IMG/VR virus record: IMGVR_UViG_2713896898_000008
Location: 1-31,078 of that record
Source: a virus
Lineage: Duplodnaviria; Heunggongvirae; Uroviricota; Caudoviricetes
Strand: one strand, 5' to 3'
DNA: 31,078 bases
How positions within the stretch are numbered: the first letter of the stretch is position 1; every line of letters starts with the position of its first letter. The notes under the pieces were generated by a model. It was not told where the DNA came from, did no database searches, and saw nothing but the letters and a program-made list of their open reading frames with translations. Of this stretch, positions 3,945 through 30,357 are shown in pieces. The position numbers and the translations under genes are program-made.

Positions 3945-3953
3945 GGAGAATAA

Positions 3954-4704: not shown

Positions 4705-4719
4705 TAAAATGATGGGTGT

Positions 4720-6446: not shown

Positions 6447-6450
6447 TCTT

Positions 6451-6834: not shown

Positions 6835-6848
6835 CAAGGAAAATAATA

Positions 6849-7880
6849 ATGAATGATTTATCAACATATTTTGGCGTTAATACTGCGGTAGTAACTCCAT
6901 TTGCTTATGAGAATGCACTTAATACCCTGATTACTAATCTCGATCTGTTCGATGTGCAATATCATACAGAAAACAGCATTCTTCTTACCGACCTGATTGA
7001 TCAGTTTGTGCAGGTAGCTGGGGAAACCTCGCCTTACGCTCAAAGCGACTGGAACGCCTCTAAACGTCAGGAATGGTCAAACAAACTTTTCCAGATGAAA
7101 CACGTCGGCAGTATTAACGCTGTTACTTCTCGTGACCTGGAACAATACAGCCGCCAATATCCAAACCGTTCTGATGCTATGCTGGTAGCGGTTAATGATT
7201 TCTCTGAGGCTCATTACCGTTCACACGCAAACCGTGTTGAAGTGGATCTGATTACCGCGCTGCTGGGCCTGAAAGTTGAATCTGAATATGCCGGACAAGG
7301 TGATCTCGACTTCCTCGACGGTCAGGCTAAAACCACGGTACCCGCTATCGACTTTGCATCGACTACTGTTAACCCGTTCCTTGCTATTCGTAAAGCGGTG
7401 CGCTTACAGAGTGAAAAGCTGGGGTCTGGTCTTGCTGCAAAGCGAACTGGTGTAATTATCTTTGCTGCTGGCACTGCTGCTGATGGTTTGTCATCTAACC
7501 CGCTGATCAGTGACATGGTGAAATATGCAGGCGATGCGAGTGCTACGGCCCTGTTTACCCGTATGGTTGATTCTAACCCAGCCTATGACTCTTTCCAGAT
7601 TGGTGGGATCACTGTTATTGATGTGTCAATGTTTCCTGAGATTGTTGCTCACATCGGAGAGAACGGTTTCGCAATTGTTCCGGTAATGGATAAAGCGGCA
7701 CAGTGTTACCAGCTTCATAGCGGCGTTGGTGTGCGTCATGCTGAGTTAGGTCAAGATGCCGTGTTGCATCACCAATATCTAATCAAGGATGAATTCCAAT
7801 TCCCATCTGTGGTTACTGAGACATCTTATCTGCCAGTAAACAACATTCCGCAAGCTATCATCTTCGGATCTGCTGCGTAA
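6849..7880 (+). CDS. hypothetical protein (343 aa), composition reminiscent of a major capsid/coat protein
   Basis: SD aaggaaaa upstream; Ala/Gly/Ser/Thr/Val-rich with no TM segments or enzymatic motifs; functional assignment is inference only. Confidence 0.5.
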   Translation: MNDLSTYFGVNTAVVTPFAYENALNTLITNLDLFDVQYHTENSILLTDLIDQFVQVAGETSPYAQSDWNASKRQEWSNKLFQMKHVGSINAVTSRDLEQYSRQYPNRSDAMLVAVNDFSEAHYRSHANRVEVDLITALLGLKVESEYAGQGDLDFLDGQAKTTVPAIDFASTTVNPFLAIRKAVRLQSEKLGSGLAAKRTGVIIFAAGTAADGLSSNPLISDMVKYAGDASATALFTRMVDSNPAYDSFQIGGITVIDVSMFPEIVAHIGENGFAIVPVMDKAAQCYQLHSGVGVRHAELGQDAVLHHQYLIKDEFQFPSVVTETSYLPVNNIPQAIIFGSAA

Positions 7881-8031
7881 TAAAGCGTTAATAGACGATT
7901 CCCCATCGGGGCAATAAGGGTAAAGGGATTAACTAACCTGTAGGCGCAAATACAGTAACGAATCTCTTTGCCCTTTTTGTTTTTCTACTGTCTACAAACC
8001 CAAATAAAAATATATATGTGAGAGAAAACCA

Positions 8032-8229
8032 ATGAATACAGAAAACCCACAATCCTTTATTCTTAAGGCTGTAAAAGAACTGGCAGCTATTAGCGAGGAA
8101 TCAGTTATAAACACATCGGCGCTTTGCCGCCTTTTAGAAATTGATGCAAATAATGTGCGCCAGCGTGTCTTTCAGACTGGGTGCAGCACTTTCGAAGCAA
8201 TTCAATACTATTGCTCTAAAAAACAATAA
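8032..8229 (+). CDS. hypothetical small protein (65 aa)
   Basis: ORF within operon. Confidence 0.35.
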   Translation: MNTENPQSFILKAVKELAAISEESVINTSALCRLLEIDANNVRQRVFQTGCSTFEAIQYYCSKKQ

Positions 8230-8263
8230 TAAACAACAATCATAATACAGGGAAACAATTAGC

Positions 8264-10105
8264 ATGTTAGAACTTAACGTCAGCCGCTTATCAAACGTTG
8301 TCACCTTCCAGGTTGATCGACCATCATTAGAGAAAGCAAAAGCAGAAGTAGAAAAACTTCGTAAACAAATGGCGGCGGTGAAAGATATAGAATTGCGTGT
8401 TAAGACACATAAACAATCAACTTCTAAAGCAAAAAAAGACGTAGACGATATTGCTAAAAAGCAAGCACAGGCAGATAAAGCCAATGCTAAAGCACAATTA
8501 GCCGCTCAACGTGTAGTTGCAAGAGAACAAAAAGCCCTGGCAGCACGCAAAGAGAAGGCAGACTTAAAACTGTTAGACGTTGGATCAAGCATTAGTGCAT
8601 TGCACCGCCTTTCTGTAGCGGAACAATATAAAGCTATTGCACAGGCTAGAGAAATTGCCCTCCAATATGAAAGAGGAGCTATTAGTCTGGCACGTATGAA
8701 TAGCCAAATGAAACGCCTACAACAGCAACAACGTAAGATTAATGGCAATCGTAACGCTCACGCTAAAGCCTATGCACCTGTTAAGGGTAGCGGGAGTATT
8801 GGCGGCGGTGCTGCGGCTGTTATGCTGGGTGGCTTAGGCGCTGGCGCTACGTATATGGCTATGAGCAAAGCCTCTGAATTTGTTACTAACAGCTTTGCGA
8901 ATGCTGAAACGCTGGGTGAATTGTATAGCCGTGCGAAGCTGGGCGGTGTAGACGTTAACCAGATGAACAATATTGAGCAATGGGCCTACAAAAACGGCGT
9001 TGATTCAATGATGGGGGATCAAGGTAAACGTAAGTATCTCGATCAGATGAAAGATGTGCGTGAGCGTGCAACCAAAAGCTATGATGAGGCTGAATATGTA
9101 GTCGATAAAAAAACAGGCAAAGGTGAATGGAAGGGCGGCGATAGCGGCATCAATACTTTAATGAATGAAGGATTCTTAACTAAAAAGGATCTAAAAGACT
9201 TTGCTGATAATCCGGCTGGTCTGGTTAGTAAAGCAGTTCAGGGAATGGTGAAGAAAGGCTATTCAGATGCACAAATCGGTAGTCGTCTGGAAGATCTGGC
9301 TGATGATTTGATGCTCACCTCTAAATACTGGACACGCTCCGCTAAAGAAGTGGAACAATCAGCACGAGAACAACGAGAATCAGGGCGCTGGGTAACACAG
9401 GCACAACAGGAAAGCGTTATTAAATTCCGTGAACTGAATAATGCACTTAGTGGGCTTTCTGACTCACAAGGGATCGCCTTTGTTGATGGCTTTATGAAAT
9501 CTCTTGATCCGAAAGTGATTGAAGAGTTTAAAAAGAGCATGGTTGCAATGCTGCCAATGTTTACCAAATTAGGCGAGGCTATCGGCGGATTGGTTAACGC
9601 CGTAATGAAAACAATCAACTGGCTGATGAAAAACGACGAGAAGACGGAAGCTATTCAGAAGAATTTAGGGGATGCACCGCCACTATCTAACGAAGGAATG
9701 AAGCAGAATCTTTCTAATCTCACTCCTGATCAATATAAAGGCGCTGGCACCGGAACAACTAAGCCAGATAACAGCAATTCCCTGGTTAACACTATTAAAA
9801 GCTGGTTTATGCCAGAAGAAACGGTAGGTGGGGCGCAGGCTGTAAATCAATACAGTCTCGAAGGACAAAACATTGCAAATCTGAAACAGAGTGCAGCACA
9901 ACAAGCTTTCAAGGCTCCTTCTTACACCTTTGCACCTGTTATTAACTTCAATCCAGAATTACAAGTAAATGCAGAAGTGCCGCTAACTATCGAATCAGAC
10001 ACCGGACGATTGAGCGAATTTATCGACTTCAAATCAAAGGCATCCTCCGCTGAGTTTAGCAAGCTATTAACGCTGGGTGTTATGTCAGGCGGGTCAACCT
10101 ATTAA
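8264..10105 (+). CDS. hypothetical 613-aa protein with long N-terminal coiled coil and Gly-rich hydrophobic segment (tape-measure / ejection / TolA-like architecture)
   Basis: residues ~20-180 are Lys/Ala/Glu/Gln-rich heptad-like; GSGSIGGGAAAVMLGGLGAGATYMAMS hydrophobic stretch; function inferred from architecture only. Confidence 0.5.
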   Translation: MLELNVSRLSNVVTFQVDRPSLEKAKAEVEKLRKQMAAVKDIELRVKTHKQSTSKAKKDVDDIAKKQAQADKANAKAQLAAQRVVAREQKALAARKEKADLKLLDVGSSISALHRLSVAEQYKAIAQAREIALQYERGAISLARMNSQMKRLQQQQRKINGNRNAHAKAYAPVKGSGSIGGGAAAVMLGGLGAGATYMAMSKASEFVTNSFANAETLGELYSRAKLGGVDVNQMNNIEQWAYKNGVDSMMGDQGKRKYLDQMKDVRERATKSYDEAEYVVDKKTGKGEWKGGDSGINTLMNEGFLTKKDLKDFADNPAGLVSKAVQGMVKKGYSDAQIGSRLEDLADDLMLTSKYWTRSAKEVEQSAREQRESGRWVTQAQQESVIKFRELNNALSGLSDSQGIAFVDGFMKSLDPKVIEEFKKSMVAMLPMFTKLGEAIGGLVNAVMKTINWLMKNDEKTEAIQKNLGDAPPLSNEGMKQNLSNLTPDQYKGAGTGTTKPDNSNSLVNTIKSWFMPEETVGGAQAVNQYSLEGQNIANLKQSAAQQAFKAPSYTFAPVINFNPELQVNAEVPLTIESDTGRLSEFIDFKSKASSAEFSKLLTLGVMSGGSTY

Positions 10106-10152
10106 TCATCACTGTGGGGCTGTTTAGCCCCCTTAAATAAGGATTACAAATT

Positions 10153-10830
10153 ATGGCAATGGGTCCGTTAACCATTGGTCGCCCGACTGAGGCGAAAATC
10201 AACAGCACAAGCAACGATAGCAACGGTAGAACAACCAAAGGGGGTAACGGCTTTGCGATCATTACCTCTAATCTCGGCAGTGGTGCAAATGCTGCTTACA
10301 ATGACTACCAGGCATTATCATTTGATAGCGTGGAATCGACGAAAGTTAGCAGAAATGCGGACGTTACAAGCTATGCCGTCGAATCAGGATCAGAAGTTAG
10401 TGATCATGTTCAAATACGGAATAACAAGTTCACATTACAAGGGCGTATCTCTGAAACCGTATTGAAGCTCAATCCTGATATGATTAAGAATGCTGGAATT
10501 AACGGCAATCGACGTATGCTTATGCTTGAATACCTAAATCAGTTGATGGACAGTCGCCAACCTTTCCTACTTGTCACTGAGTTAAAAAATTATGACAACG
10601 TTGTGTTAGTTGGCATGTCTTACGAAGAAGAAGCAAGCGAAAGCCTATTGTTTACTCTTGATTTTGAGCAAATCCGTCTTGTCTCTAAAGCAACTACAAG
10701 CGCAATTGCGGTAAAAACAGCACCAAATAAATCTGTAGGAGGCCAGGTTAAAATGCAGGTAAATACAACAGAACAGAAAAATCAAAAAAGCCCAGGGCAA
10801 GACGTTGTAACGCCAGTATTTAAACAATAG
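10153..10830 (+). CDS. hypothetical protein (225 aa)
   Basis: last gene of operon; followed by hairpin 10872-10903. Confidence 0.45.
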   Translation: MAMGPLTIGRPTEAKINSTSNDSNGRTTKGGNGFAIITSNLGSGANAAYNDYQALSFDSVESTKVSRNADVTSYAVESGSEVSDHVQIRNNKFTLQGRISETVLKLNPDMIKNAGINGNRRMLMLEYLNQLMDSRQPFLLVTELKNYDNVVLVGMSYEEEASESLLFTLDFEQIRLVSKATTSAIAVKTAPNKSVGGQVKMQVNTTEQKNQKSPGQDVVTPVFKQ

Positions 10831-10871
10831 CCTTAAACGCCTATGAAACGCTCTGTAACGAGATAATCATA

Positions 10872-10903
10872 AAAGAGGCATCAGTCTATATTGAAGCCTC
10901 TTT
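10872..10903. terminator. bidirectional stem-loop between convergent genes
   Basis: AAAGAGGC...GCCTCTTT stem; T-rich tract on both strands (TTTATTA on plus, TTTTATGATTAT on minus). Confidence 0.5.
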
Positions 10904-10910
10904 ATTACGT

Positions 10911-12188
10911 CTATAGCGTTGTTTTACGCCTTAAATTTGATTTTTTATTGATTGATAAGCCTTTCTCTATTTCAGGGTAGCGTAAAAGCTCAATATATTT
11001 TTTAAGCTCTATTGGAGAAGCTGCATTTTTGCTATATGTGCGGAATGTTTCTGTATTGCCGCGTGTATGGCCCAGGAGAAGGGCGATCCTGTCTTCTGGA
11101 ATTTGATTTCGATCAAGAAGCTGTGCTACTCCGTGTCTCAGAGAATGAAACACTTTCCTTTCTGTTCCCTTTTCCCCTAAAGCCTTTCGTTTAGCTCTTG
11201 TAAATCGTTGTGTATGCCACGTAGAGCGTTTACCGTCAGCACGTTCTGTAATGCTGGCGTGATAGAACAAAAAGCCATTGTGAGGCTTTTCACGCAGCGA
11301 CAACACCAACGGAGTGATAAGGTTATGCACAGGCACAACACGTGCCGCAGCTTTCGTCTTTCCCTGTGTGATTTCAAAACACAGCACACCTTCGATCTCT
11401 TTCACATCGTCTATTGTGAGACTTGCTATCTCATTGATCCGCATACCTGTATATAAACCGATAAGACACAAAGCCGTCATTTCTTTGTTTTCTGCTGAAT
11501 TACCGGAAAATACTTGCAACACCTGCAATAGCTCTTTGTTAGAAAATGCCTCGTAGCTCTCTCTACTTTGTGCCACATCAAGCCTATGCCCTCGCCAGGG
11601 GGAGAGCGCCCTTTCTGGCGCATCGTGGTAACGTGATGAAGCTAATTCCCATAGCTGGGCCATTGGACTGATATAATTTGCAATTGATTGTTGTGAAAGA
11701 GTTTTTTGCATGTGTTCAATCCAGCCTGTAACAGTGGTGCGGCTTACATCTTGCAATGCAATATCAGGCTTTTTACGGTAGGAGAGAAACATCTCTACCG
11801 CTTTTCTTGCCTTAGCTAAAGTGGCTGGCTTCTTCTTCGTGCTGTTAATTGTCAGGTAGATTTCAAGAATTTTAAGCAATGACGGACACGAAGACGCTGT
11901 ATCTTGCACTCTGGTAGCTGTTTTGGCGTATTTAGCCTTACTGCGTAACAGTTCCAGCGTGTTTTCTATTGTGCTGTTTACAGGGGCAACACTCTCCCGT
12001 AAGCAATGGTATTCATCTGCAATCTGATCACGCTTTCTACGTGCAACACGAAGATTACTTGTGTGTAGACTTCTGACAAACGTCCTTTTTCCTTCAAAAA
12101 AGGGCTGCATATACACAGGCAGCGTGATCCTTAAATAGTAGTTACCGTAAGAATCACAGATTAAGTATTGGTTAGGCTTGTATCTCAT
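10911..12188 (-). CDS. tyrosine recombinase / phage-type integrase (second integrase; ORF-track 10911..12275 begins at TTG)
   Basis: C-terminal catalytic signature HSLRHGVAQ ... LLGHT ... TYSK (R-H-R-Y family); preferred start ATG 12188 has SD GGAG 6 nt upstream. Confidence 0.8.
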   Translation of the reverse strand: MRYKPNQYLICDSYGNYYLRITLPVYMQPFFEGKRTFVRSLHTSNLRVARRKRDQIADEYHCLRESVAPVNSTIENTLELLRSKAKYAKTATRVQDTASSCPSLLKILEIYLTINSTKKKPATLAKARKAVEMFLSYRKKPDIALQDVSRTTVTGWIEHMQKTLSQQSIANYISPMAQLWELASSRYHDAPERALSPWRGHRLDVAQSRESYEAFSNKELLQVLQVFSGNSAENKEMTALCLIGLYTGMRINEIASLTIDDVKEIEGVLCFEITQGKTKAAARVVPVHNLITPLVLSLREKPHNGFLFYHASITERADGKRSTWHTQRFTRAKRKALGEKGTERKVFHSLRHGVAQLLDRNQIPEDRIALLLGHTRGNTETFRTYSKNAASPIELKKYIELLRYPEIEKGLSINKKSNLRRKTTL

Positions 12189-12363
12189 AAAATCTCCGGC
12201 TAAAGTGTCGGAGCGTTTGTAATGTGAAAATTGATTGTGACGCATAGAAAATGATGATTTTTCTATAAGATTCAATCAATTAGTAATGGTCGTAGGTGAT
12301 GGCATTAACACGAGATTAATCGAGTGTTTTACTCCTATTATCGGCACCATTTAAATCAATAAG

Positions 12364-13524
12364 TTATCTCACATTTAAGTAAACCACGTTTTCCTCTTGT
12401 GCCGTATTTGTGCCATTGCGACTTATAATCGCATCGATTTTGCTCGCGTGCTCAGTGAGATGCCCGGCTGAAAGGTGGGCGTATCTTTGAACCATTTCGA
12501 GAGTTTCCCATCCTCCCATCTCTTTAAGTGCAAGAAGAGAGACACCGGACTGAACCAGCCAGCTTGCCCAGGTATGCCTCAGGTCATGGAAGCGGAAGTT
12601 GCTAATGCCTGCCCGCTTTAACGCTCCCTTCCATGCCTTGTTGCTGTCGGTTCTCATCTTCCTTACCGCTGCTGTTTTTGTTCCGTCGTTTCGGTAGGCA
12701 GGTTTGGTGTGGACAAATACCCATCTCTTATGGAGCCCCTGCTGTTTTCTTAATATCTGGCATGCGGTTTCGTTAAGAGGAACTCCGATCGCATTGCCGG
12801 CTTTTGTTTCATCAGGGGGCATCCATGCCATTTTCTTATCCAGATCGACCTGTGACCACTCAAGGTCTGTAACGTTGGAGCGGCGAAGACCTGTAGTGAT
12901 TGCGAACATGACCACAGGGAAGAAATGAGGAGCAATTTCTGCAAACAGGCGCTTCGATTCCTCCTCTGTAAGCCATCTGATTCGTCCATTCTTAACGCGT
13001 GGTGTTGATATTTTTGGCGCCCTGTCAAGCCATCCCCATTCAACAGCCATATTGAGAATAGCGCGAAGTATTGCCAGATGCCGCATCTTCGTTCCTTTGC
13101 TTGCCAGCTTTGGTTTATACTCCGGCACTGGCTTGCCAAGCCGCAAACACCTGTCCCGGCTCATCTCCCAGTTCAGGCGATGGCGGCGGTTTTCCATCCC
13201 GTCTACCGCCTCCATTATTTTTTCTGTTGTTATGTCAGAGAGAATGGTTTCTCTGAAGTGCAACATCCAGAACGATATAATGCTCTTGTCATCATCAATG
13301 GACTTCTTATCCGATTTCTCACGCAGCCACCGTATGCAGGCTTCCTTGAATAGCTTTTTCGGTGATTCCCCGAGATTTTTTACTCTCCACGCTTCTGCTT
13401 TCAGACGATCGTGAAGTTCTTGCGCTTGCCTTTTGTCCGATGTTTCAAGAGAGCGTCTAACTCTTGATCCATCTGGCGCGACGAAATCGCAGTGCCACGT
13501 GCCACCGCGTAGTTTGATTGACAT
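12364..13524 (-). CDS. int: lambdoid phage integrase (tyrosine recombinase)
   Basis: 386 aa; catalytic motifs TGLRRSN, FHDLRHTWAS, VQRYAHL; strong SD AGGAGG; immediately downstream of an excisionase and Red operon as in lambda, but sequence is not lambda Int. Confidence 0.9.
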   Translation of the reverse strand: MSIKLRGGTWHCDFVAPDGSRVRRSLETSDKRQAQELHDRLKAEAWRVKNLGESPKKLFKEACIRWLREKSDKKSIDDDKSIISFWMLHFRETILSDITTEKIMEAVDGMENRRHRLNWEMSRDRCLRLGKPVPEYKPKLASKGTKMRHLAILRAILNMAVEWGWLDRAPKISTPRVKNGRIRWLTEEESKRLFAEIAPHFFPVVMFAITTGLRRSNVTDLEWSQVDLDKKMAWMPPDETKAGNAIGVPLNETACQILRKQQGLHKRWVFVHTKPAYRNDGTKTAAVRKMRTDSNKAWKGALKRAGISNFRFHDLRHTWASWLVQSGVSLLALKEMGGWETLEMVQRYAHLSAGHLTEHASKIDAIISRNGTNTAQEENVVYLNVR

Positions 13525-13748
13525 GCTTTAACCTCCTGCATATCAACCGCATTCACCGCGCTATTGTGTCTCACAGACTTAAGCGCCGCAATGCAGTCTG
13601 ACTTGCAAATGCGATATGGGCTTTTAGGTTTATCTGGATTTATCTTTGCGGCCTGAAGTCGTCCACTTCGTATCCACTGCGTGATAGTGCCTTTGTCTAC
13701 CTTCAGATACGATGCTGCCTCTTCACGAGTGAAGATTTCTTCTTCCAC
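13401..13748 (-). CDS. xis: excisionase-like HTH protein
   Basis: N-terminal FTREEAASYLKVDKGTITQWIRSGRL HTH typical of Xis/AlpA family; positioned directly upstream of int (overlaps int start by ~40 codons, so C-terminal extent uncertain). Confidence 0.6.
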   Translation of the reverse strand: MEEEIFTREEAASYLKVDKGTITQWIRSGRLQAAKINPDKPKSPYRICKSDCIAALKSVRHNSAVNAVDMQEVKACQSNYAVARGTAISSRQMDQELDALLKHRTKGKRKNFTIV

Positions 13749-17987: not shown

Positions 17988-18920
17988 CTATTCGATTTTT
18001 TTAACCATGTAGTTACGTCGTGATGTTCCTAATCTTTCATTGTGAATCTCAGAAACGCTTACTACGAGCGATATTCGTTCACCAACTTTATATTTACTTT
18101 GAATTTCTCCTAACATATCAATCGGATAAGAAGCCTTTATTTTTCCAAGCTCGCTTGCAATCTCCAATTTTCCGTACATGGATAAAATAGCAAGTTCGCC
18201 TGATATATGCTCATCCGGTAGCTGAATGACCTTCGTTAAAGCTAAGCGAGCATTCAGTTTTTTTATATCTTCTGAAGAAATTGACACTTGTCTGGTACCA
18301 TCACTTAAAGGTCCAATCCAAGTAAGATCAAAGTTAAGACTATATTTTTCGCACTCATTTATGATGTTTTTTAGGTTAGCTGTTGATTGCGAACCAATTT
18401 CGGCAATTTTAGCCGTGAATGTTTCTTCATCAATGGATGAGAGTAGTGCAAAAATCTCCTTAACAGCATGACTGGATACTGTTTCGATGAGCTCGCAAGA
18501 ACCAGTAGAAAAAGTAACACCTAACTTCGTCGAACCTGGACGCAAGTCTGCCAATCTCATGTCTAATGATTTTTTAACATCAATCGGCACACGACTAGAA
18601 TCTTTCCCAGATCCAAGTCGGTAAACTGCTTTCTGTACAAGGGATGCGAGATTACCTGAAATTACAGATAGAATATCTAACGGAATAGACCCGAAATCGA
18701 CCAAAACACCTTTTAATCTCAACTCCATGAAATCACGTAAAGGATGTTGGTTATCGATTGCACGTTGTCTCTCTCGGAGATCGCTCAGATGGGAGTCAAG
18801 TGATCTAAATATAATGTCATCAGCAAATGATCTCCCCTTATTTTGAGCAAGCAGATCCACATCGCGTTGAATGAACGCAATTCGCTCCTTGAGGGAGTTG
18901 AATGTTTTTTCTTCGCTCAT
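17988..18920 (-). CDS. hypothetical 310-aa protein, partner of nucleotidyltransferase-like gene (rex-position module)
   Basis: start ATG overlaps stop of upstream gene (ATGA); no recognised motifs; located between cI and pL where lambda carries rexA/rexB. Confidence 0.6.
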   Translation of the reverse strand: MSEEKTFNSLKERIAFIQRDVDLLAQNKGRSFADDIIFRSLDSHLSDLRERQRAIDNQHPLRDFMELRLKGVLVDFGSIPLDILSVISGNLASLVQKAVYRLGSGKDSSRVPIDVKKSLDMRLADLRPGSTKLGVTFSTGSCELIETVSSHAVKEIFALLSSIDEETFTAKIAEIGSQSTANLKNIINECEKYSLNFDLTWIGPLSDGTRQVSISSEDIKKLNARLALTKVIQLPDEHISGELAILSMYGKLEIASELGKIKASYPIDMLGEIQSKYKVGERISLVVSVSEIHNERLGTSRRNYMVKKIE

Positions 18921-19390
18921 AACATTACCCTCACGAGGCCTTTAGGATTCTCCTTCCGATCAAAACCAAACCACCCTCTCCAGTAACTTCGCCTTTCACT
19001 ATAATCGATTTCTGGATGATTTTCAGGCAGCAAAAGAACGTCAATGCTGTAGTTTTCTTTAATAAAATCTCTATTTAACAATGAGCTAACCAATGGCATC
19101 AGCGTGTTTGGCAAAGAGTTTAGGGCCAAATAATCGACGACCACGAGTATATCTATGTCATCAGGTTCAGGTTTCTCTGTAGTGAATGAACCATCGATCC
19201 ACACTTCAGAGAAACATAGACACTGCTGATTAACAAGTTTAAATTGCTCAATAAGCTGTATAAAATTACAGTATAGCATACTTCTTCTAACGGATTTTGG
19301 GAAGGTGTCGACACAAAGAGACTTGATGCCATCACTATCCATATCATGAAATCCTGCTGTAAGAAGAGGTGGGAAGCTAGGCTTTTCCAT
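18917..19390 (-). CDS. nucleotidyltransferase-fold protein (Pol-beta/MNT-like), 157 aa
   Basis: motif WIDGSFTTEKPEPDDIDILVVVD fits the G-S-x(9-13)-D-x-D nucleotidyltransferase signature; SD AGGA 7 nt upstream; directly downstream of cI. Confidence 0.55.
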   Translation of the reverse strand: MEKPSFPPLLTAGFHDMDSDGIKSLCVDTFPKSVRRSMLYCNFIQLIEQFKLVNQQCLCFSEVWIDGSFTTEKPEPDDIDILVVVDYLALNSLPNTLMPLVSSLLNRDFIKENYSIDVLLLPENHPEIDYSERRSYWRGWFGFDRKENPKGLVRVML

Positions 19391-23173: not shown

Positions 23174-23560
23174 TTAATAGTTTATTCTTTCTGATATATA
23201 CCCGTCGAGATCTGAAAGAATTTCGCCAGTTTCAATATCTATTGCGGTTAATATTCTATCAATATAGAAACTTCGCATGCTTTTTCTTAAATGGCACCGT
23301 GCATATATTTTTTTCTTTGAAGGGTCGTATTTTATGATAGATATATGGCGATTAGTGATTTCGCCCTTCGCATCCTGATAAGTTATATCTAACTCAATGA
23401 TATCGGTACTATAACTATAGTTAGTTTGCGTTTTTTTATGTGTGGGTGCCTTTATTTTTTTAGTAGTACGAACTGGTTGCGAAGGTGGATTTTGGGATTT
23501 GGAGCTTTTAAAAACGAAAGCGGCAATAATCAGGATAGCTATTAATACTATAAACCACAT
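23174..23560 (-). CDS. membrane-anchored WYL-like domain protein (moron)
   Basis: N-terminal TM helix (WFIVLIAILIIAAFVF); C-terminal KIYARCHLRKSMRSFYIDRI resembles the WYL-domain core; start at ATG 23560 with SD AGGTG; AT-rich and antisense to flanking phage genes. Confidence 0.5.
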   Translation of the reverse strand: MWFIVLIAILIIAAFVFKSSKSQNPPSQPVRTTKKIKAPTHKKTQTNYSYSTDIIELDITYQDAKGEITNRHISIIKYDPSKKKIYARCHLRKSMRSFYIDRILTAIDIETGEILSDLDGYISERINY

Positions 23561-23922
23561 ATTTAACACCTAAAAACTGTTTAAAGTCAGTATGATAGAG
23601 CGATTTCTGGAACCTGTTGAGTGATGGTGATCACATTATGAGAATGAATGACTGCGGTTGACCGCCACCATTCACTGGGGCTAATTCTTTGTGTTGCCGC
23701 AAAATCGGCACACGGGATTGGCGTCCCGGAACACTACTCAACGCATACCGCGTTAAGCAGTTTTTTATGCGCTAAGCGCGGCTACGCCCAAATTATGGTG
23801 GGCTGTGTGAGGGCTTCTTCGGAAGCGCCGGGTTTGTGTAGCCGGTTACGCCAACCTTGCACAGTTCACTACCTGTCGATTGGCGTCGTTGGTGGTGATT
23901 GTTAACCTGATGAGGTGATACT

Positions 23923-24240
23923 ATGACTACTCAATTAGCATTCCACAAAACGACGTTTACCCCGATTTGCCACAACAACAGAATTTGGCTTACTGCCACT
24001 GAAGTTGGTTTAGCAATGGAATATGCGGACGATAACGCAGCTAAGCGCATTTACTCTCGTCACTCAGATGAATTTACAGACATGATGATAGGAGGGGTCA
24101 AAGTGACCACCCTCGTGGAATGCAGGCGTCTCGAGTATTTAGCCTTCGGGGAGACCAACGGATCGTCATGTTCGCACGAACTCCTGTGGTCAAAGAGTTC
24201 CCCCGCTGGGTTCTGAATATTCTCGATCGAGAAGTTCAAT
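23923..24240 (+). pseudogene. Bro-N-like antirepressor-domain gene with an apparent -1 frameshift at a C-run (~24110-24112)
   Basis: frame 1 reads ...DEFTDMMIGGVKVTT then degenerates; the adjacent frame continues PRGMQASRVFSLRG...MFARTPVVKEFPRWVLNILDREVQ*, a typical Bro-N C-terminus. Confidence 0.45.
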
Positions 24241-24482
24241 AATCCCCAATCACAGAACAATTCACTGATAACGAACTTCTTTTTATACTGTTGATAAATG
24301 TTTTTAGGCTGCTTATACACTATATTCTTTTGTGTCTGTGAATTTATGTGGCAGCAAATTGCTATGGGGTATTTGTTGTATATTTAAGAAAATGTGATCT
24401 CGATTGTCTTTTTAAATAAAAATTAAACAAAATTATAACTCGCCGCTAAGGTTTATAAAAGTATGCATTAGCAGGTGTCAAC

Positions 24483-26009
24483 ATGAAAAAAGCCATAGCA
24501 TATATGCGATTTTCATCACCAAGCCAGATGTCTGGTGATTCATTAAACCGTCAGAGAAGGCTTATTACTGAATGGCTAAAGGTAAATAGTGATTATTACC
24601 TTGATACCGTAACGTATGAAGATTTGGGGTTAAGCGCATTCAATGGAAAGCATGCACAGTCAGGAGCTTTTTCGGAATTTTTAGATGCCATAGAGCATGG
24701 CTGTATATTGCCAGGAACTACATTGCTAGTTGAAAGTCTGGACAGACTTTCAAGAGAAAAAGTCGGTGAGGCGATTGAACGCCTGAAACTGATTTTAAAT
24801 CATGGTATTGATGTTATAACTCTGTGCGATAATACAACTTATAATATTGATTCTTTAAATGAACCATATTCATTAATAAAAGCAATACTTATAGCTCAAA
24901 GAGCCAATGAAGAAAGCGAGATAAAGTCAAGCCGAGTTAAATTATCATGGAAGAAAAAAAGACAAGATGCAATGGAGTCAGGTACGATTATGACGGCATC
25001 TTGCCCGAGATGGCTTTCATTAGATGAAAAAAGAACGTCGTTTGTCTTAGACCCTGACAGGGTGAAAACGATTGAGCTGATTTTTAAACTAAGGATGGAA
25101 AGACGCTCTTTGAATGCAATTGCTAAGTATTTAAATGATCATGCTATAAAGAATTTCTCAGGAAAAGAAAGTGCATGGGGGCCTTCTGTAATTGAAAAAT
25201 TATTAGCTAATAAAGCGCTGATAGGTATATGCGTACCTTCATATCGTGCAAGAGGGAAGGGAATAATTGAAATCGCTGACTATTATCCCAGAGTGATATC
25301 AGATGATTTGTTTTACTCTGTGCAGGAAATTCGGCTGGCACCTTTTGGTATTAGCAATAGTAGCAAGAATCCTATGTTGATAAATCTACTGCGAACAGTT
25401 ATGAAGTGCGGCGCTTGTGGTAATACTATGATTGTTAATGCAGTATCAGGAAGCTTGCACGGCTATTATGTTTGCCCGATGAGAAGATTGCATCGATGTA
25501 ACAGGCCATCAATAAGAAGAGATTTGGTTGACTATAATATAGTTAATGAATTGCTTTTTAATTGTAGTAAAATCCAACCAGTTGAAAATAAGAAAGATGT
25601 TAATGAAACTCTGGAATTGAAAGTTATTGAACTTCAGATGAAAATTAATAATTTAATTGTTGCATTATCTGTTGCACCTGAAGTTACCGCTATAGCAGAA
25701 AAAATTAGAGTATTAGATAAAGAATTGCGAAGGGTTTCTATATCATTAAAAACTTTGAAGAGTAAAGGTGTAAGTACACTTGGTGATTTCCATGACATTG
25801 ATTTAACCAGTAAAAATGGGCGGGAATTATGTCGTACACTTGCTTATAAAACATTCGAAAAAATTATAATAAACACAGATAACAAAACATGTGATATCTA
25901 TTTTATGAATGGTATTGTTTTTAAACACTATCCTTTGATGAAAATAATATCTGCCCAACAGGCGATAAGTACTCTCAGGTATATGATTGATGGGGAAGTT
26001 TATTTTTAA
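24483..26009 (+). CDS. large serine recombinase (resolvase-domain plus recombinase and zinc-ribbon regions)
   Basis: 508 aa; N-terminal AIAYMRFSSPSQ...SLNRQ catalytic-serine resolvase motif; Cys cluster CGACGN...C; AT-rich codon usage unlike the flanking nin genes. Confidence 0.8.
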   Translation: MKKAIAYMRFSSPSQMSGDSLNRQRRLITEWLKVNSDYYLDTVTYEDLGLSAFNGKHAQSGAFSEFLDAIEHGCILPGTTLLVESLDRLSREKVGEAIERLKLILNHGIDVITLCDNTTYNIDSLNEPYSLIKAILIAQRANEESEIKSSRVKLSWKKKRQDAMESGTIMTASCPRWLSLDEKRTSFVLDPDRVKTIELIFKLRMERRSLNAIAKYLNDHAIKNFSGKESAWGPSVIEKLLANKALIGICVPSYRARGKGIIEIADYYPRVISDDLFYSVQEIRLAPFGISNSSKNPMLINLLRTVMKCGACGNTMIVNAVSGSLHGYYVCPMRRLHRCNRPSIRRDLVDYNIVNELLFNCSKIQPVENKKDVNETLELKVIELQMKINNLIVALSVAPEVTAIAEKIRVLDKELRRVSISLKTLKSKGVSTLGDFHDIDLTSKNGRELCRTLAYKTFEKIIINTDNKTCDIYFMNGIVFKHYPLMKIISAQQAISTLRYMIDGEVYF

Positions 26010-26116
26010 ATAATTAACTCTGTTTCGGAATAAATATTAAGTTAGAGAATGCTGCCACAGCTATTTAGAGTAAATTGTATATTGTTTGTTGGCTGCACAT
26101 ATGATTTAGATAAAAA

Positions 26117-26138
26117 GTAACCCACCGAAGTGGGTTAC
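26117..26138 (-). terminator. stem-loop terminator downstream of the lipoprotein gene
   Basis: GTAACCCAC-CGAA-GTGGGTTAC; minus strand followed by TTTTTATCTA. Confidence 0.65.
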
Positions 26139-26143
26139 TATCA

Positions 26144-26500
26144 TCATCCTGCGTTTTCGCATCCAGGAAGGCTGCGGTCAATAATGAGATTCCCTTCAAC
26201 ACGTAAACCAATTTTACCAACCAGGAATGATTGGTTAAGTTGTGTTACAACAACGTCAGTCAGACCCACAGCGCAACGGTCTTGCTCGATTGCACGATCG
26301 GCAGCAGTTTTTACATTGGGAATACCTGTTGGGAAGATGATAACAGGATAGCTATCTTCTGCAGTTACGCGTTTTCCTTTGTAAAATTTACCACCATTTA
26401 AATTATAGTTTTTTGTACTGGCTACAGTAAGGTCTGCTACACGAACGGTACATCCGGTCAGCAAAAGGGTTGCCAATGCGACAGCCAACATTTTTTTCAT
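26144..26500 (-). CDS. lipoprotein (signal peptide with lipobox LLTGC), function unknown
   Basis: MKKMLAVALATLLLTGC signal/lipobox; 118 aa; moron-like position in the nin region. Confidence 0.6.
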   Translation of the reverse strand: MKKMLAVALATLLLTGCTVRVADLTVASTKNYNLNGGKFYKGKRVTAEDSYPVIIFPTGIPNVKTAADRAIEQDRCAVGLTDVVVTQLNQSFLVGKIGLRVEGNLIIDRSLPGCENAG

Positions 26501-26770
26501 TATTTTTTCCTTTTGTTACACTAAAAAATCCGGCGGATTCTATCATGTGGTTCTTATCTGATCACATCATTTACCGATAAAATTCTTTTGATTTTCAATT
26601 ATCAATAAGAGAAAATTCTTCTGCTGTCGGCCTGAACACCCGGCGGTGGGGTTGCGCTAAACGGGGACGTTTATGCGCACATACAATCCAAACTCTCTTC
26701 TCCCTTCACAGATGCAGAAATGCACCTGCAATTCTTTGCATCTAGCGTTTGACCTCTGCGGAGGTGAAGC

Positions 26771-27226
26771 GTGAACCTCTCACAAGACGGCATCAAACTG
26801 CATCGCGGTAACTTCACCGCTATCGGTCAGCAGATCCAGCCTTATCTGGAGGACGGTAAATGCTTTCGCATGGTGCTTAAACCGTGGCGCGAGAGACGCA
26901 GTCTTTCCCAGAATGCACTCAGCCACATGTGGTACAGCGAAATCAGTGAGTACCTCATCAGCAGGGGTAAAACGTTCGCTACTGCAGTATGGGTAAAAGA
27001 TGCACTCAAACACACATACCTCGGTTATGAAACCAAAGACCTGGTTGATGTCGTAACCGGTGAAATCACTACGATCCAGTCGTTACGCCATACCTCCGAT
27101 CTTGATACCGGAGAGATGTATGTCTTCCTGTGTAAGGTTGAAGCCTGGGCGATGAATATTGGCTGTCACCTGACTATTCCGCAGAGCTGCGAGTTCCAGC
27201 TGCTGCGCGACAAGCAGGAGGCGTAA
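26771..27226 (+). CDS. ninB: NinB-like recombination protein
   Basis: motif [18 protein letters not shown] resembles lambda NinB RNRSLDQNRKLW...; GTG start with SD GGAGG; nin-region position. Confidence 0.55.
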
Positions 27227-28610: not shown

Positions 28611-28633
28611 AAAAGGCGGTAGTACCGCCTTAA
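28611..28633 (-). terminator. stem-loop terminator at the 3' end of the antisense cassette, abutting Q
   Basis: AAGGCGGTA-(3 nt)-TACCGCCTT; minus strand followed by TTATTATTTTAC; overlaps the stop codon of the 28630..29244 gene. Confidence 0.7.
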
Positions 28634-29244
28634 TGATCGAATCGTTGTATGTTTTCATGGAATCTACAAAAGTGAATAGATATTTTGAATAGTAAAATGT
28701 AGAAACCAACTTGACTTAAAGTTATGGCTTTGCATTTATCATTCAAGAGTTTTTGTAATTCTTCCGTTGGTAATTGGTATACATCATCAAGAAAAACGAT
28801 GCATTCTTCTAAGTTGTCTGATTCAGGAAGATAAAAAATATTAGTAATTAACTGCTTCCTTATAGCATCAATTTTGCTATCTATTGAAGTCTTAGAAACT
28901 CCGTTGGAGAGAAGAATAGCTTCGAACTTAGATAAACTTACTAACGGAGCAAAGACTGCACGCATTGGCACATCACGATTATTACTTGTATCTATATCGC
29001 AACTGTTGCTTAATATAATGCCTCGTGTTTTTTTAGTCCCTTTAATTGAATATACTGTAAGCTCCTTAAATATATCTCCCTGAAGTGCAGCATTTTTCAG
29101 ATCATCATGATAATTGCTAAGGTAGTAGTTAGTGTTTTCAGGGAAATCTCTAAGTGCATTTATTAGTCCTTCTTTTTGAGGAGCTGTTAAATAATATGGA
29201 ATTTGATCTTTGAATTTCTCGATATCAAAAATGTTATTACTCAT
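28630..29244 (-). CDS. hypothetical protein C of antisense cassette (204 aa)
   Basis: ATG 29244 directly follows the upstream stop (TAAGTGATG); AT-rich; no motif recognised. Confidence 0.55.
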   Translation of the reverse strand: MSNNIFDIEKFKDQIPYYLTAPQKEGLINALRDFPENTNYYLSNYHDDLKNAALQGDIFKELTVYSIKGTKKTRGIILSNSCDIDTSNNRDVPMRAVFAPLVSLSKFEAILLSNGVSKTSIDSKIDAIRKQLITNIFYLPESDNLEECIVFLDDVYQLPTEELQKLLNDKCKAITLSQVGFYILLFKISIHFCRFHENIQRFDH

Positions 29245-29247
29245 CAC

Positions 29248-29592
29248 TTAATCCAAGTATAAATCCCACAGTGAAGCATGAACGACTTTATTTATTTCAC
29301 TGCCTAAAGACACCTGGTTTGTTGATAATTTTTCATAAAAGTTTGTCATCGAGACTGCAAGTCTTTGATCAACTGAGATTGTGCTCCCTGCTTTATATGT
29401 TTGTGTGATGGAATGAACTGAATCGGTAGTTGAAGACTTATACTCCAAAGCGTGATTTTTGACGATTAAACTTTGTTGAGGACCATGCTGTTGATTTTGG
29501 GCAATGTCTGTTAATGCAGTTATATGCAGACTATATAAAACCAAAGTTAATACTTGAAGTTGAGCTCGATAAACATGATGAGACGGATACAT
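29248..29592 (-). CDS. hypothetical protein B of antisense cassette (114 aa, hydrophobic N-terminus)
   Basis: SD-like GGTGG upstream; 15-nt spacing from upstream gene stop; LQVLTLVLYSLHITAL hydrophobic segment. Confidence 0.5.
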   Translation of the reverse strand: MYPSHHVYRAQLQVLTLVLYSLHITALTDIAQNQQHGPQQSLIVKNHALEYKSSTTDSVHSITQTYKAGSTISVDQRLAVSMTNFYEKLSTNQVSLGSEINKVVHASLWDLYLD

Positions 29593-29607
29593 ATCATACC
29601 ACCATTT

Positions 29608-30357
29608 CTATTTGTAGGATGGTTCTAGTTCTTGAATTGTTGACTCTTTAAGGCAACTAAAGAAAGCTAATTTATTACAGGCGTGAAGATCATCAAGAAT
29701 TTTTTTGGGTTCGTTTTTAAACTTATCTATTTCATCAGTATTAGTGATTTGCCTAATGCTGTCTATGTCTAGGATTAGTCCTTTTTTATTAAATTCTCCA
29801 TTATCTGACATGACTAAAGCATGAGATAATATTTGAATTATATTTAGAAATGCGCCTTCATTTTTATCGATTCTGATATTGATCGGATAATTAGACATAG
29901 ACTCGCCAGCCATATTTAAGCTGACGTTTAGCTTATCAAATAAATTAGAATCGTCTTCTTTTGGGAAAAAATCTACATACTTTAATGAGTAGCGGATGAT
30001 GTTGTCATTTAAATTTAATTTGTTAAGCTCATTTAATACATGAATGATTTTTTCTCTAAAATGACTCCACCCTTGATATTTGGTGCTGGTGGATACAACA
30101 ACACCATGGTCACTTAGTCCAATATAGTACCCTTCGATTTCGAGGCGACTGACAACTGCGTAATGTAATTGTTCATCTCCCTCACGAACATTTTTAGGTA
30201 TTTGACTGGGTGGTAAACTAATTACTGGTTTTGTACAACCTAGAGCGTGAAAAAGAAACCCTGGAACTATTTCCGATATTTGTGTTTCTTTAGAAAAACG
30301 CATTTCGAAAGCAGCTTCGATTACTGGTTGTTTTGATAGAGATGTTGGAATGAGCAT
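29608..30357 (-). CDS. hypothetical protein A of antisense cassette (249 aa)
   Basis: first gene of tightly packed three-gene minus-strand operon; AT-rich; no motif recognised. Confidence 0.55.
   Translation of the reverse strand: MLIPTSLSKQPVIEAAFEMRFSKETQISEIVPGFLFHALGCTKPVISLPPSQIPKNVREGDEQLHYAVVSRLEIEGYYIGLSDHGVVVSTSTKYQGWSHFREKIIHVLNELNKLNLNDNIIRYSLKYVDFFPKEDDSNLFDKLNVSLNMAGESMSNYPINIRIDKNEGAFLNIIQILSHALVMSDNGEFNKKGLILDIDSIRQITNTDEIDKFKNEPKKILDDLHACNKLAFFSCLKESTIQELEPSYK

What the first reader, a model, noticed from the sequence alone, without database searches (positions are those of the whole stretch)
24241..26770. Large serine recombinase and lipoprotein embedded in the nin region
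Seen in sequence: a 508-aa large serine recombinase (24483..26009) with AT-rich codon usage, followed by a convergent lipoprotein gene (26144..26500) and a shared hairpin terminator, sits between a disrupted Bro-N gene and ninB. The prophage already has a tyrosine int/xis pair, so this recombinase is not needed for its integration. Inference: either a remnant of a second element nested in the nin region, or a recombinase acting as a DNA switch; its cognate att or invertible sites are not evident to me.
Basis: partly seen in the sequence, partly recalled or inferred. Interest (0 to 1): 0.6.

Follow-up and report, generated by a model that had tools for sequence, protein, structure and literature searches.

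The report
ybcK recombinase gene of DLP12-type prophages
The recombinase is the already catalogued but functionally unstudied ybcK gene that about a quarter of E. coli genomes carry at this same spot in lambda-like prophages, and the lipoprotein next to it is an unrelated add-on gene, so the finding is real but ordinary.

Summary
Window 24483-26009(+) encodes a 508-aa large serine recombinase (LSR) with all catalytic and zinc-ribbon residues. Window 26144-26500(-) encodes a lipoprotein. The block lies between a truncated antirepressor gene and ninB.

The LSR is the ortholog (94% aa) of E. coli K-12 DLP12 ybcK. ybcK occurs in 1421 of 5426 complete E. coli genomes and in viable lambdoid phages such as Perceval and 4A7, always in the ren-ninB slot. 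Perceval, whose whole record I read, also carries a tyrosine Int/Xis.

It is not decaying: 84 of 84 sampled copies are intact and dN/dS is about 0.06. I found no att-like or inverted repeats. The block's homology boundaries differ between contexts. No inversion polymorphism and no permuted prophage were seen. Relatives at 40-60% identity appear as single-gene modules in other lambdoid nin regions, at prophage ends and on plasmids.

The lipoprotein (phrog_7441) is a separate moron with its own minus-strand terminator. It is absent from the complete E. coli genomes. In Klebsiella and Salmonella phages it sits in the tail module.

A C4 antisense RNA at 23791-23876 shows the disrupted gene is a c4-ant immunity module.

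Verdict: a known gene of unknown biochemical target. Neither the nested-element reading nor the DNA-switch reading is supported.

The parts
23791..23876 (+). C4-type antisense RNA, the regulator of the downstream antirepressor gene (P1 immI-like c4-ant module)
   Evidence: Rfam RF01695 scores 70 bits against a gathering score of 45. The intact sister module in phage PhiR26_1 has isrK + C4 + a full-length Rha.
23923..24278 (+). Remnant of the Bro-N/Rha-type antirepressor gene: residues 1-120 of 202, frameshifted near 24111 and cut off at 24278
   Evidence: tblastn to PhiR26_1 Rha gives aa 1-63 and aa 64-120 in two different frames. PHROG anti-repressor families match. DNA homology to PhiR26_1 ends at 24278.
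24279..24482 (+). AT-rich untranslated leader that travels with ybcK. It corresponds to the K-12 leader reported to hold a Rho/NusG-dependent terminator.
   Evidence: Homology to E. coli ybcK loci starts at 24278/9. The proximal ~110 nt are 88% identical, against 78% for the whole leader. Literature: PMC4150792.
24483..26009 (+). ybcK ortholog, a 508-aa large serine recombinase. Catalytic domain 24492-24965, recombinase domain 25053-25334, zinc ribbon 25386-25553, then the coiled-coil/C-terminal part.
   Evidence: Pfam. 94% aa identity to the E. coli YbcK cluster. R9, S11, Q15, D87, R88, R91 and four Cys are invariant in the family. The family profile matches the SprA, A118, TP901-1 and phiC31 integrases. 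dN/dS is 0.06.
26116..26139 (-). Intrinsic terminator hairpin of the lipoprotein gene. On the plus strand no T-run follows it.
   Evidence: Terminator scan: 10-bp stem, 5 GC pairs, loop of 4, then TTTTT, on the minus strand only.
26144..26500 (-). Independent moron: a 118-aa outer-membrane-type lipoprotein of unknown function (phrog_7441)
   Evidence: Lipobox LLTGC. phrog_7441 matches at 1e-67 over the full length. Absent at DNA level from 5426 E. coli genomes. 68-90% aa identity in Klebsiella, Salmonella and Cronobacter phages, where it lies in the tail module.
26673..26774 (+). ylcH-like 33-codon ORF within the conserved pre-ninB junction sequence, where homology to other DLP12-type phages resumes (from 26587/26653)
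   Evidence: blastn boundaries. A 33-aa gene is called at this place in L183-L187 and in E. coli records. The same ~104 nt occur twice in PhiR26_1, flanking its ant cassette.
26771..27226 (+). ninB/ybcN (Orf-family recombination mediator), the right-hand conserved neighbour
   Evidence: 95-96% nt identity to E. coli ybcN and phage 82 orf151. Pfam NinB match at 3.3e-4.

Best explanation
SHOWN. The gene is the ortholog of E. coli DLP12 ybcK. It is a catalytically intact large serine recombinase and a long-standing single-gene accessory module of DLP12/phage-82-type lambdoid phages. It sits in the non-essential ren-ninB slot. Perceval, whose complete record I read, and the window prophage integrate with their own tyrosine Int/Xis. 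In this lineage the AT-rich ybcK block abuts a c4-ant antirepressor gene that it truncates. The lipoprotein gene next to it is a separate moron of Klebsiella/Salmonella-phage type with its own terminator. The two genes are neighbours through ordinary mosaic exchange in this hotspot and do not form a functional unit.

INFERRED MECHANISM. YbcK is kept silent in the lysogen. K-12 data place Rho-dependent termination in its leader. On induction it would be transcribed with the early-right operon, because it has the same orientation as O-P-ren-ninB-Q. It would then act in trans as a normal serine recombinase: dimers bound at two specific sites, concerted double-strand cleavage through Ser11, subunit rotation and religation. 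The sites are not the edges of its own block.

My rough split for the substrate is:
- a site in its own conserved leader or elsewhere on the phage or plasmid genome (resolution or dimerisation of replicating circles), about 25%;
- DNA of competing or co-resident mobile elements, about 25%;
- a secondary chromosomal attachment site, about 15%;
- the remainder unknown, including a non-recombination role.
For: Identity and position. The protein is 94% identical to the E. coli YbcK cluster. The same slot is occupied in K-12-like, Bongo and Perceval loci. ybcK is found in 1421 of 5426 genomes, 1398 of them near full length. The emrE-ybcK junction is contiguous in 1400 genomes. Perceval carries tyrosine Int/Xis as well as YbcK, and the window has Int and Xis.

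Functionality. 84 of 84 copies are intact. dN/dS is 0.06 at dS 0.37-0.46. Catalytic and Zn-ribbon residues are invariant across relatives down to 30% identity. The family profile matches solved serine integrases.

A module, not an element.
- Left boundary: L001 position 2914 against the fliE-locus remnant, but 2962 against the window.
- Right boundary: 4705, about 4765 or 4997, depending on the partner.
- Homology between family members in different contexts is trimmed to the gene plus 60-200 nt upstream.
- Relatives lie in nin regions of other lambdoids: a Pantoea prophage that also encodes its own tyrosine integrase within the locus, and an Atlantibacter prophage. Others lie at prophage ends and on plasmids.

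Silencing. A Rho/NusG-dependent terminator lies in the K-12 ybcK leader (PMC4150792).

Lipoprotein independence. It has a minus-strand terminator, is absent from the complete E. coli genomes, and sits in the tail module of other phages. It is paired with ybcK only in the window-type lineage.
Against: No recombination site, partner site or product has been identified, so the mechanistic part is inference from family membership. No conserved motif was found in the flanks.

The left edge of the block is sharp, within 1-2 nt, in two contexts, and an IS1-like insertion lies at the same point. Antirepressor fragments flank ybcK on opposite sides in the two arrangements. Both facts could still be traces of a single old insertion whose mechanism is unknown.

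The only published phenotype, sabinene tolerance on overexpression (PMC7181518), does not point to recombination.
Confidence: 0.65

Rival explanations
1. A nested, self-mobilising mini-element. On this reading ybcK, with or without the lipoprotein cargo, is or recently was an integrative element that inserted itself into the antirepressor gene by its own serine-recombinase activity, with attL at about 24278 and attR at about 26026 or 26587.
For: The block is AT-rich and foreign. It interrupts the ant gene. An N-terminal ant fragment lies to its left in the window and a C-terminal ant fragment lies to its right in most E. coli loci. The left edge is sharp. Family members appear as gene-sized modules in many contexts. 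There is a clean 2083-nt presence/absence difference between emrE and ybcL.
Against: The two ant fragments overlap by 59 nt (aa 100-120), so the junctions are not the same crossover point. Block boundaries differ between contexts by 48 nt on the left and up to about 290 nt on the right. There are no att-like repeats or shared junction motif. The emrE-ybcK linkage is fixed in 1400 genomes. No locus shows ant-N + ybcK + ant-C together, and none shows an empty ant site with matching ends.
Confidence: 0.1
2. A local DNA switch. On this reading YbcK inverts or deletes an adjacent segment, for example the lipoprotein cassette, to control expression.
For: Serine recombinases in other cryptic prophages, PinQ and PinR, invert nearby DNA with a phage-defence effect (PMC12529663). 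The lipoprotein gene is convergent with ybcK. A 21-nt, 76% complementary pair flanks ybcK (24336-24356 and 26050-26070).
Against: That repeat is not conserved in E. coli ybcK loci, and all inverted repeats found are at chance level. Among 84 loci the only inverted homologies are IS elements. Five further window-type loci are strictly collinear over 6-7 kb. The cargo next to ybcK differs between lineages, so no conserved invertible segment exists.
Confidence: 0.03
3. A second integration system. On this reading YbcK is a true phage integrase captured from LSR-integrating prophages, and it lets the phage integrate at an alternative chromosomal site.
For: Relatives at 50-60% identity are the terminal gene of prophages, next to host genes (ssrA/smpB, lepA, an aldehyde dehydrogenase gene). 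That is where an integrase would sit. The domain set is that of serine integrases.
Against: All 84 sampled loci have phage DNA on both sides of ybcK, and loci without ninB are simple deletions. 1400 of about 1400 E. coli copies keep the phage-side emrE junction. No permuted prophage was seen. The far ends of the prophages that carry the terminal relatives could not be read, so their integrase role is itself unproven.
Confidence: 0.12

Closest known systems
YbcK of the E. coli K-12 DLP12 cryptic prophage (also annotated in phages Perceval, 4A7, D2, 1W and 3W)
   Same: Same 508-aa length and 94% aa identity. Same ren-ninB slot and the same orientation. Same AT-rich leader.
   Different: A diverged allele (dS 0.37-0.46, about 91% nt) that is absent from the 5426 complete E. 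coli genomes. The left neighbour is a truncated c4-ant module instead of emrE. The right neighbour is a lipoprotein instead of ybcL-ybcM, an ant C-terminal fragment or an alpha/beta hydrolase.
Serine integrases of temperate phages (A118 Int, SPbeta SprA, TP901-1, phiC31, Bxb1)
   Same: Catalytic domain, recombinase domain and zinc ribbon with an inserted coiled-coil region. Profile-level homology to the solved structures.
   Different: The gene is not at a prophage end. No adjacent attP and no recognisable directionality factor were found. The host phage integrates with a tyrosine Int/Xis. A single-sequence search finds no PDB relative.
LSR excisionases and transposases (CcrA of SCCmec, XisF, TnpX/TndX)
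   Same: Same superfamily. These are the only NCBIfam models touched (CcrA 53 bits, XisF 49 bits).
   Different: The scores are far below the family cutoffs of 700 and 375 bits. No element with defined ends was found.
Small serine invertases of cryptic prophages (PinE, PinQ, PinR, Gin, Cin)
   Same: Accessory serine recombinases carried by prophages that already have another integrase. phrog_125 'DNA invertase' matches the catalytic part.
   Different: Those proteins are about 190 aa with a C-terminal HTH and sit beside an invertible segment flanked by inverted repeats. Here the protein is 508 aa and no such segment exists.
Lambda-type morons (bor, lom) and phage exclusion lipoproteins (Cor, T5 Llp), for the lipoprotein gene
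   Same: A small lipoprotein gene on the opposite strand with its own terminator, placed between conserved phage genes and absent from sister phages.
   Different: No sequence or fold similarity to any characterised protein. The best Foldseek PDB E-value is 0.2 on a model with pLDDT 76. An exclusion function is only a guess from its place in tail modules.
P1 immI c4-icd-ant and Gifsy isrK-anrP antirepressor modules, for the disrupted upstream gene
   Same: A C4 RNA directly upstream of a Bro-N/Rha antirepressor gene. The intact version with isrK + C4 is in PhiR26_1.
   Different: Here the antirepressor is frameshifted and truncated at residue 120, so only the RNA gene looks intact.

Membership tests
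Large serine recombinase superfamily | N-terminal resolvase-type catalytic domain with the Ser nucleophile and conserved Arg/Asp residues | tested here: met
   PF00239 at 1.1e-18. The motifs YMRFSSPSQ and ESLDRLSR are present. R9, S11, Q15, D87, R88 and R91 are invariant in 26 relatives.
Large serine recombinase superfamily | Recombinase domain plus a zinc-ribbon domain with four Cys | tested here: met
   PF07508 at 7.4e-15 and PF13408 at 1.8e-8. C309, C312, C331 and C339 are invariant.
Large serine recombinase superfamily | Coiled-coil motif inserted in the zinc-ribbon domain | tested here: inconclusive
   The family profile aligns through residues 141-470 of SprA and 189-475 of A118 Int, which include their coiled coils. 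No dedicated coiled-coil or structure prediction was run.
Large serine recombinase superfamily | Catalyses recombination between specific DNA sites | not testable with these tools
   No sites were identified, and no experimental report was found.
YbcK orthologous group (DLP12-type lambdoid phages) | Full-length high identity to E. coli YbcK | tested here: met
   94% identity over 100% of 508 aa to cluster P0001, which has 6144 member sequences.
YbcK orthologous group (DLP12-type lambdoid phages) | Location between ren and ninB/ybcN, in the early-right orientation | tested here: met
   Window order is P, ren..., ybcK..., ylcH, ninB, ninE, rusA, Q. The order is the same in L001-L003.
Phage serine integrase module (integrase of the element that carries it) | Is the element's integrase: sits next to attP, hence at a prophage end, with no other integrase needed | tested here: not met
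   The gene is internal to the prophage. Phage DNA lies on both sides in 84 loci and in 1400 genomes. Tyrosine Int/Xis are present.
Nested integrative element bounded by attL/attR | Identical element boundaries in independent contexts, and an empty site whose two halves match the flanks | tested here: not met
   Left boundaries are 2914 and 2962. Right boundaries are 4705, about 4765 and 4997, all in L001 coordinates. The ant fragments overlap by 59 nt.
Site-specific DNA inversion switch | Inverted repeats flanking a segment next to the recombinase, with both orientations found in nature | tested here: not met
   Only chance-level, non-conserved inverted repeats were found. There are no inverted homologies except IS elements. 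Window-type loci are collinear.
Known anti-phage defence systems (PADLOC-DB 2.0) | Match to a defence-protein model | tested here: not met
   No PADLOC hit for YbcK or for the lipoprotein.
Moron (autonomous accessory gene in a phage genome), for the lipoprotein gene | Own transcription signals, placement between conserved genes, absence from close relatives | tested here: met
   Minus-strand intrinsic terminator. Absent from all other ybcK loci and from E. coli genomes. No consensus promoter was found upstream of the gene, so that part is open.
C4/IsrK-controlled antirepressor module | C4-family RNA immediately upstream of a Bro-N/Rha/Ant gene | tested here: met
   RF01695 at 70 bits, located 47 nt upstream of the ant start codon. 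The ant gene itself is truncated.

The most novel reading that the evidence does not exclude
YbcK-family recombinases may be a distinct class of orphan large serine recombinases. They are gene-sized modules spread over enterobacterial lambdoid nin regions, prophage termini and plasmids, and are kept under strong purifying selection. On this reading they act in trans in conflicts between mobile elements, for example by recombining or breaking competitor phage or plasmid DNA, or they move themselves as minimal one-gene elements. Either way they would not be serving as the integrase of their carrier.
Probability: 0.15. Interest if true: 0.65.

Novelty: already known. Interest (0 to 1): 0.22.

Why it matters
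ybcK is one of the most common recombinase genes in E. coli. It is present in about 26% of complete genomes, always intact in the sample examined and strongly constrained, yet no DNA substrate or biological role has been published. The present window adds a diverged allele and a new pair of neighbours: a truncated c4-ant module and a Klebsiella-type lipoprotein. It gives no new handle on the mechanism.

If the target sites were found, there would be two gains. One is a new E. coli-native serine recombinase for genome engineering. The other is an explanation of why lambdoid phages that already have Int/Xis retain a second, unrelated recombinase in their early operon.

Tried and rejected
1. Direct and inverted repeat searches around the block, in the window and in three E. 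coli or phage loci, gave only short, chance-level, non-conserved pairs. One 15-nt pair (ybcK 25679-25693 / ninB 26802-26816) is conserved, but both arms lie inside coding sequence and about 0.5 such pairs are expected by chance.

2. Looking for an 'empty site'.
- PhiR26_1 lacks ybcK but differs by replacement, not by insertion.
- The emrE-ybcL-ybcM remnant at fliE gives a clean 2083-nt indel, but its ends do not coincide with the other boundaries and carry no repeat.

3. Searching for a conserved flank motif among 23 family members, upstream and downstream 300 nt, found nothing beyond close relatives.

4. Searching for inversion polymorphism found only IS elements.

5. Searching for alternative integration, that is ybcK at a prophage-host junction, found none. 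Loci lacking ninB are deletions into the tail gene J.

6. A cassette-capture idea, that variable cargo starts at one fixed point after ybcK, was rejected. Divergence points lie at +17, about +77-95, about +280 and about +420 nt after the stop codon.

7. Recurrent adjacency to antirepressor or KilA-N genes is not general. The Atlantibacter nin locus has a C5 methylase and DinI instead.

8. PADLOC gave no hit for YbcK or the lipoprotein.

9. For the lipoprotein, Pfam and NCBIfam gave nothing beyond the lipobox. An AlphaFold model (pLDDT 76) has no significant PDB match.

10. Complete phage genomes with 40-60% identical relatives, which would show whether those are sole integrases, are not in the phage collection.
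Full report
WHAT IS THERE

The large ORF carries the three Pfam domains that define a large serine recombinase (LSR): Resolvase, Recombinase and Zn_ribbon_recom. GC falls to 0.29-0.40 across it, against about 0.5 on either side.

The small ORF starts MKKMLAVALATLLLTGC, which is a signal peptide with a lipobox. It matches phrog_7441 (unknown function) end to end.

The hairpin between the two genes (26116-26139) is a good intrinsic terminator, but only for the minus strand. On the plus strand no T-run follows it. 'Shared' is therefore only half right.

The right neighbour at 26771-27226 is ninB/ybcN. The left neighbour at 23923-24278 is a Bro-N/Rha antirepressor gene. It is frameshifted near 24111 and stops being homologous to the intact gene of phage PhiR26_1 at residue 120, precisely at 24278.

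The prophage has a tyrosine integrase at 12364-13524(-) and an excisionase-type gene at 13401-13748(-).

WHAT IT IS

The recombinase is the ortholog of ybcK, a gene of the DLP12 cryptic prophage of E. coli K-12.
- It is 94% identical in protein and about 91% in DNA to E. coli alleles.
- ybcK is present in 1421 of 5426 complete E. coli genomes, near full length in 1398 of them.
- It is present in twelve phage records, including Perceval, 4A7, Lambda_4C10, D2, 1W, 3W and several PhiR phages.
- In the loci whose annotation I read it lies between ren (usually followed by emrE) and ninB/ybcN, in the orientation of the early-right operon.
- Perceval, a complete phage genome, has a tyrosine integrase and an excisionase as well as 'Large serine recombinase, YbcK homolog'.

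The recombinase is therefore a regular resident of this phage lineage, and it is not the lineage's integrase.

The exact window arrangement (P, ren, a 128-131-aa minus-strand gene, ant remnant, ybcK, lipoprotein, ylcH, ninB) exists in at least 24 other contigs, including an Escherichia albertii chromosome. Five that I compared are collinear with the window over 6-7 kb. Window 1-10900 is 100% identical to a thrW island of E. coli.

IS IT A DECAYING REMNANT?

No. All 84 copies I collected are intact. That set comprises 80 IMG/VR loci, three annotated loci and the window. dN/dS between the window allele and E. coli alleles is 0.06, at dS 0.37-0.46. One further window-type copy (L185) has a 1-nt frameshift.

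The residues that do the chemistry in serine recombinases are all present: R9, S11, Q15, D87, R88 and R91. So are the four zinc-ribbon cysteines. They are invariant in an alignment reaching down to 30% identity. A profile of that alignment finds the solved serine integrases SprA, A118 Int, TP901-1 Int and phiC31 Int. The single sequence finds none.

IS IT A NESTED ELEMENT WITH ATT SITES?

I compared the block in every context I could find.
- Against E. coli ybcK loci, window homology runs from 24278 to 26026, which is L001 2962-4705.
- Against the ybcK-less emrE-ybcL-ybcM remnant that about 2300 E. coli genomes carry at fliE-yedK, the K-12 locus has a clean 2083-nt extra segment, L001 2915-4997.
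- Against the most common E. coli arrangement, the K-12 type diverges about 77-95 nt after the stop codon. Other types diverge at about +280 and about +420.

The left edge is thus 2914 or 2962, and the right edge is 4705, about 4765 or 4997, depending on the partner. A site-specific recombinase would leave the same edges every time.

The window has ant residues 1-120 to the left of ybcK. Most E. coli loci have ant residues 100-202 to its right. The two fragments overlap by 59 nt, so the junctions are not one crossover point. A single old illegitimate insertion into the ant gene, followed by replacement of one flank in each lineage, explains this best.

Repeat searches found nothing conserved or beyond chance. 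The emrE-ybcK junction is contiguous in 1400 genomes.

One point remains in favour of a defined left end. Homology starts within 1-2 nt of the same position in the emrE context and in the window, and an IS1-like element is inserted at that same point in one locus. I treat this as a fragile AT-rich spot next to the emrE terminator hairpin, but it is not explained.

IS IT A SWITCH?

Among the 84 loci the only sequences found in opposite orientation are IS elements. The window-type loci are collinear. The DNA next to ybcK differs between lineages, so there is no conserved segment to invert.

THE WIDER FAMILY

Proteins of 505-522 aa and 40-60% identity occur across Enterobacterales. Their contexts fall into three groups.

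(a) The nin region of other lambdoid prophages.
- Pantoea dispersa: between the replication genes and Q, in a prophage with its own tyrosine integrase.
- Atlantibacter sp. RC6: after O and P, next to a C5 methylase, before DinI, NinG and Q.
- 'Candidatus Pantoea alvi': between P and Q, in the opposite orientation.

(b) The last gene of a prophage, after the tail-fibre and tail-fibre-assembly genes and next to host genes. This is seen in Atlantibacter (540 nt from ssrA), Yersinia, Erwinia, Ewingella and Pantoea.

(c) Plasmids or conjugative DNA. One lies beside an IncFII repA and one beside MobA and a shufflon-like gene.

When two relatives sit in different contexts, the shared DNA is trimmed to the gene plus 60-200 nt upstream and 0-17 nt downstream. 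No motif is shared by the flanks across the family. The family therefore behaves as a one-gene accessory module. The group (b) members could be genuine integrases, but I could not read the far ends of those prophages.

HOW IT MOST LIKELY WORKS

Shown: an intact, constrained LSR gene with a co-travelling AT-rich leader, in the early-right operon orientation, in phages that integrate by other means.

From the literature: in K-12 the leader contains a Rho/NusG-dependent terminator that keeps ybcK off (PMC4150792). Overexpression raises sabinene tolerance (PMC7181518). No recombination experiment was found.

Inferred: the enzyme is made mainly when antiterminated early transcription runs through the nin region. 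It then acts in trans by the standard serine-recombinase mechanism on a pair of sites that are not the edges of its block.

The proximal 110 nt of the leader are 88% conserved, where neutral sites would be about 65-70%. A cis site there is possible, but a promoter, rut site and ribosome-binding site would explain the conservation just as well.

I split the substrate question roughly as follows:
- own replicon, meaning resolution or dimerisation near the replication module, which would fit groups (a) and (c): 25%;
- other mobile elements: 25%;
- a secondary chromosomal site: 15%;
- the rest unknown.

THE LIPOPROTEIN

It is not part of a unit with ybcK.
- It accompanies ybcK only in the window-type lineage.
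- It is absent at DNA level from all 5426 complete E. coli genomes.
- It has its own terminator.
- Its homologs (68-90% aa) in Klebsiella, Salmonella and Cronobacter phages lie inside the tail gene cluster, just before the tape-measure or tail protein gene.
- The family is strikingly conserved, 68-90% identity across Enterobacterales, Aeromonas, Shewanella and Pseudomonas, but has no known domain.
- An AlphaFold model (pLDDT 76) has no significant match in the PDB.

A receptor-masking or exclusion role like Cor or Llp is a guess from position only.

THE DISRUPTED NEIGHBOUR

Rfam finds a C4 antisense RNA at 23791-23876, 47 nt upstream of the ant start codon. PhiR26_1 has isrK + C4 + an intact Rha at the same place. 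The 'disrupted Bro-N gene' is therefore the antirepressor of a P1 immI / Gifsy isrK-type module. In this prophage it has lost its C-terminal 80 residues to the ybcK block.

COMPARISON, NOVELTY AND VERDICT

By sequence and synteny this is a member of the YbcK group and of the LSR superfamily. It fails the tests for a carrier's integrase, for an att-bounded nested element and for an inversion switch.

The gene is already annotated in K-12 and in published phage genomes, so I rate it as already known. What is new here is only a diverged allele and its neighbours. The open question is what an orphan, strongly constrained LSR does in a quarter of E. coli genomes. That question is real, but this window does not make it more testable. 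Interest is low to moderate.

Noticed in passing
window 23791-23876 (+): C4 antisense RNA (Rfam RF01695, 70 bits) lies directly upstream of the truncated antirepressor gene. The ORF called at 23648-23905 overlaps it and is probably not a gene. The sister phage PhiR26_1 has isrK + C4 + an intact Rha.
   Followed up: partly
window 23174-23569 (-): An AT-rich 131-aa ORF with an N-terminal membrane helix and a C-terminal stretch matching the PADLOC 'RTasWYL-YodC' model (5.9e-9) and, weakly, Pfam WYL. It occupies the post-ren position where PhiR26_1 carries the defence gene PD-lambda-1.
   Followed up: no
window 17988-19390 (-): Two genes next to the cI repressor gene, in the position of lambda rexAB, match the PADLOC candidate defence system PDC-M63. 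The B component is 17988-18920 (4e-42). The A component is 18917-19390 (7e-43, Pfam DUF6932).
   Followed up: partly
window 1-12275: The left 10.9 kb are 100% identical to an E. coli island at tRNA-Thr (thrW, next to proA). The island carries a small serine recombinase (719-1276, -) and its own tyrosine integrase (10911-12275, -). That integrase abuts the lambdoid prophage's integrase (12364-13524, -). The window therefore holds four recombinase genes and a tandem integration.
   Followed up: partly
window 26653-26756; L004 (PhiR26_1) 3067-3170 and 5001-5104: The ~104-nt ylcH/pre-ninB sequence occurs twice as a direct repeat (89% identity) in PhiR26_1, bracketing its isrK-C4-Rha-hyp cassette. 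It looks like a homologous 'linker' at which cassettes are exchanged in this slot.
   Followed up: partly
L180/L181 (E. coli UM146, DA33133), fliE-yedK locus: About 2300 complete E. coli genomes carry an old prophage remnant, emrE-ybcL-ybcM-porin, at fliE. It is about 90% identical to the DLP12 genes but lacks ybcK. It differs from K-12 DLP12 by a clean 2083-nt indel between emrE and ybcL.
   Followed up: partly
window 28630-30357 (-): Three minus-strand genes (205, 114 and 249 aa) lie just after the Q antiterminator gene, where DLP12 has the porin nmpC. They have no Pfam or PADLOC match. The same trio is present in L184, L186 and L187.
   Followed up: no
L072 about 590-640; L061 and L033: An IS1-like element is inserted within 1-2 nt of the left edge of the ybcK homology block in one IMG/VR locus. 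A 1.33-kb IS is inserted 49-51 nt after the ybcK stop codon in another.
   Followed up: no
L098, L099, L175 (Ewingella), about 60-70 nt upstream of the LSR start codon: A palindrome, TGTTCAC-N5-6-TGAACA, sits in the leader of the Ewingella relatives. It looks like an operator and is not shared with the E. coli or window leader.
   Followed up: no
L185 6212-7739: One window-type locus has a 1-nt insertion that frameshifts ybcK after about codon 408. It is the only disrupted copy seen among 89.
   Followed up: no
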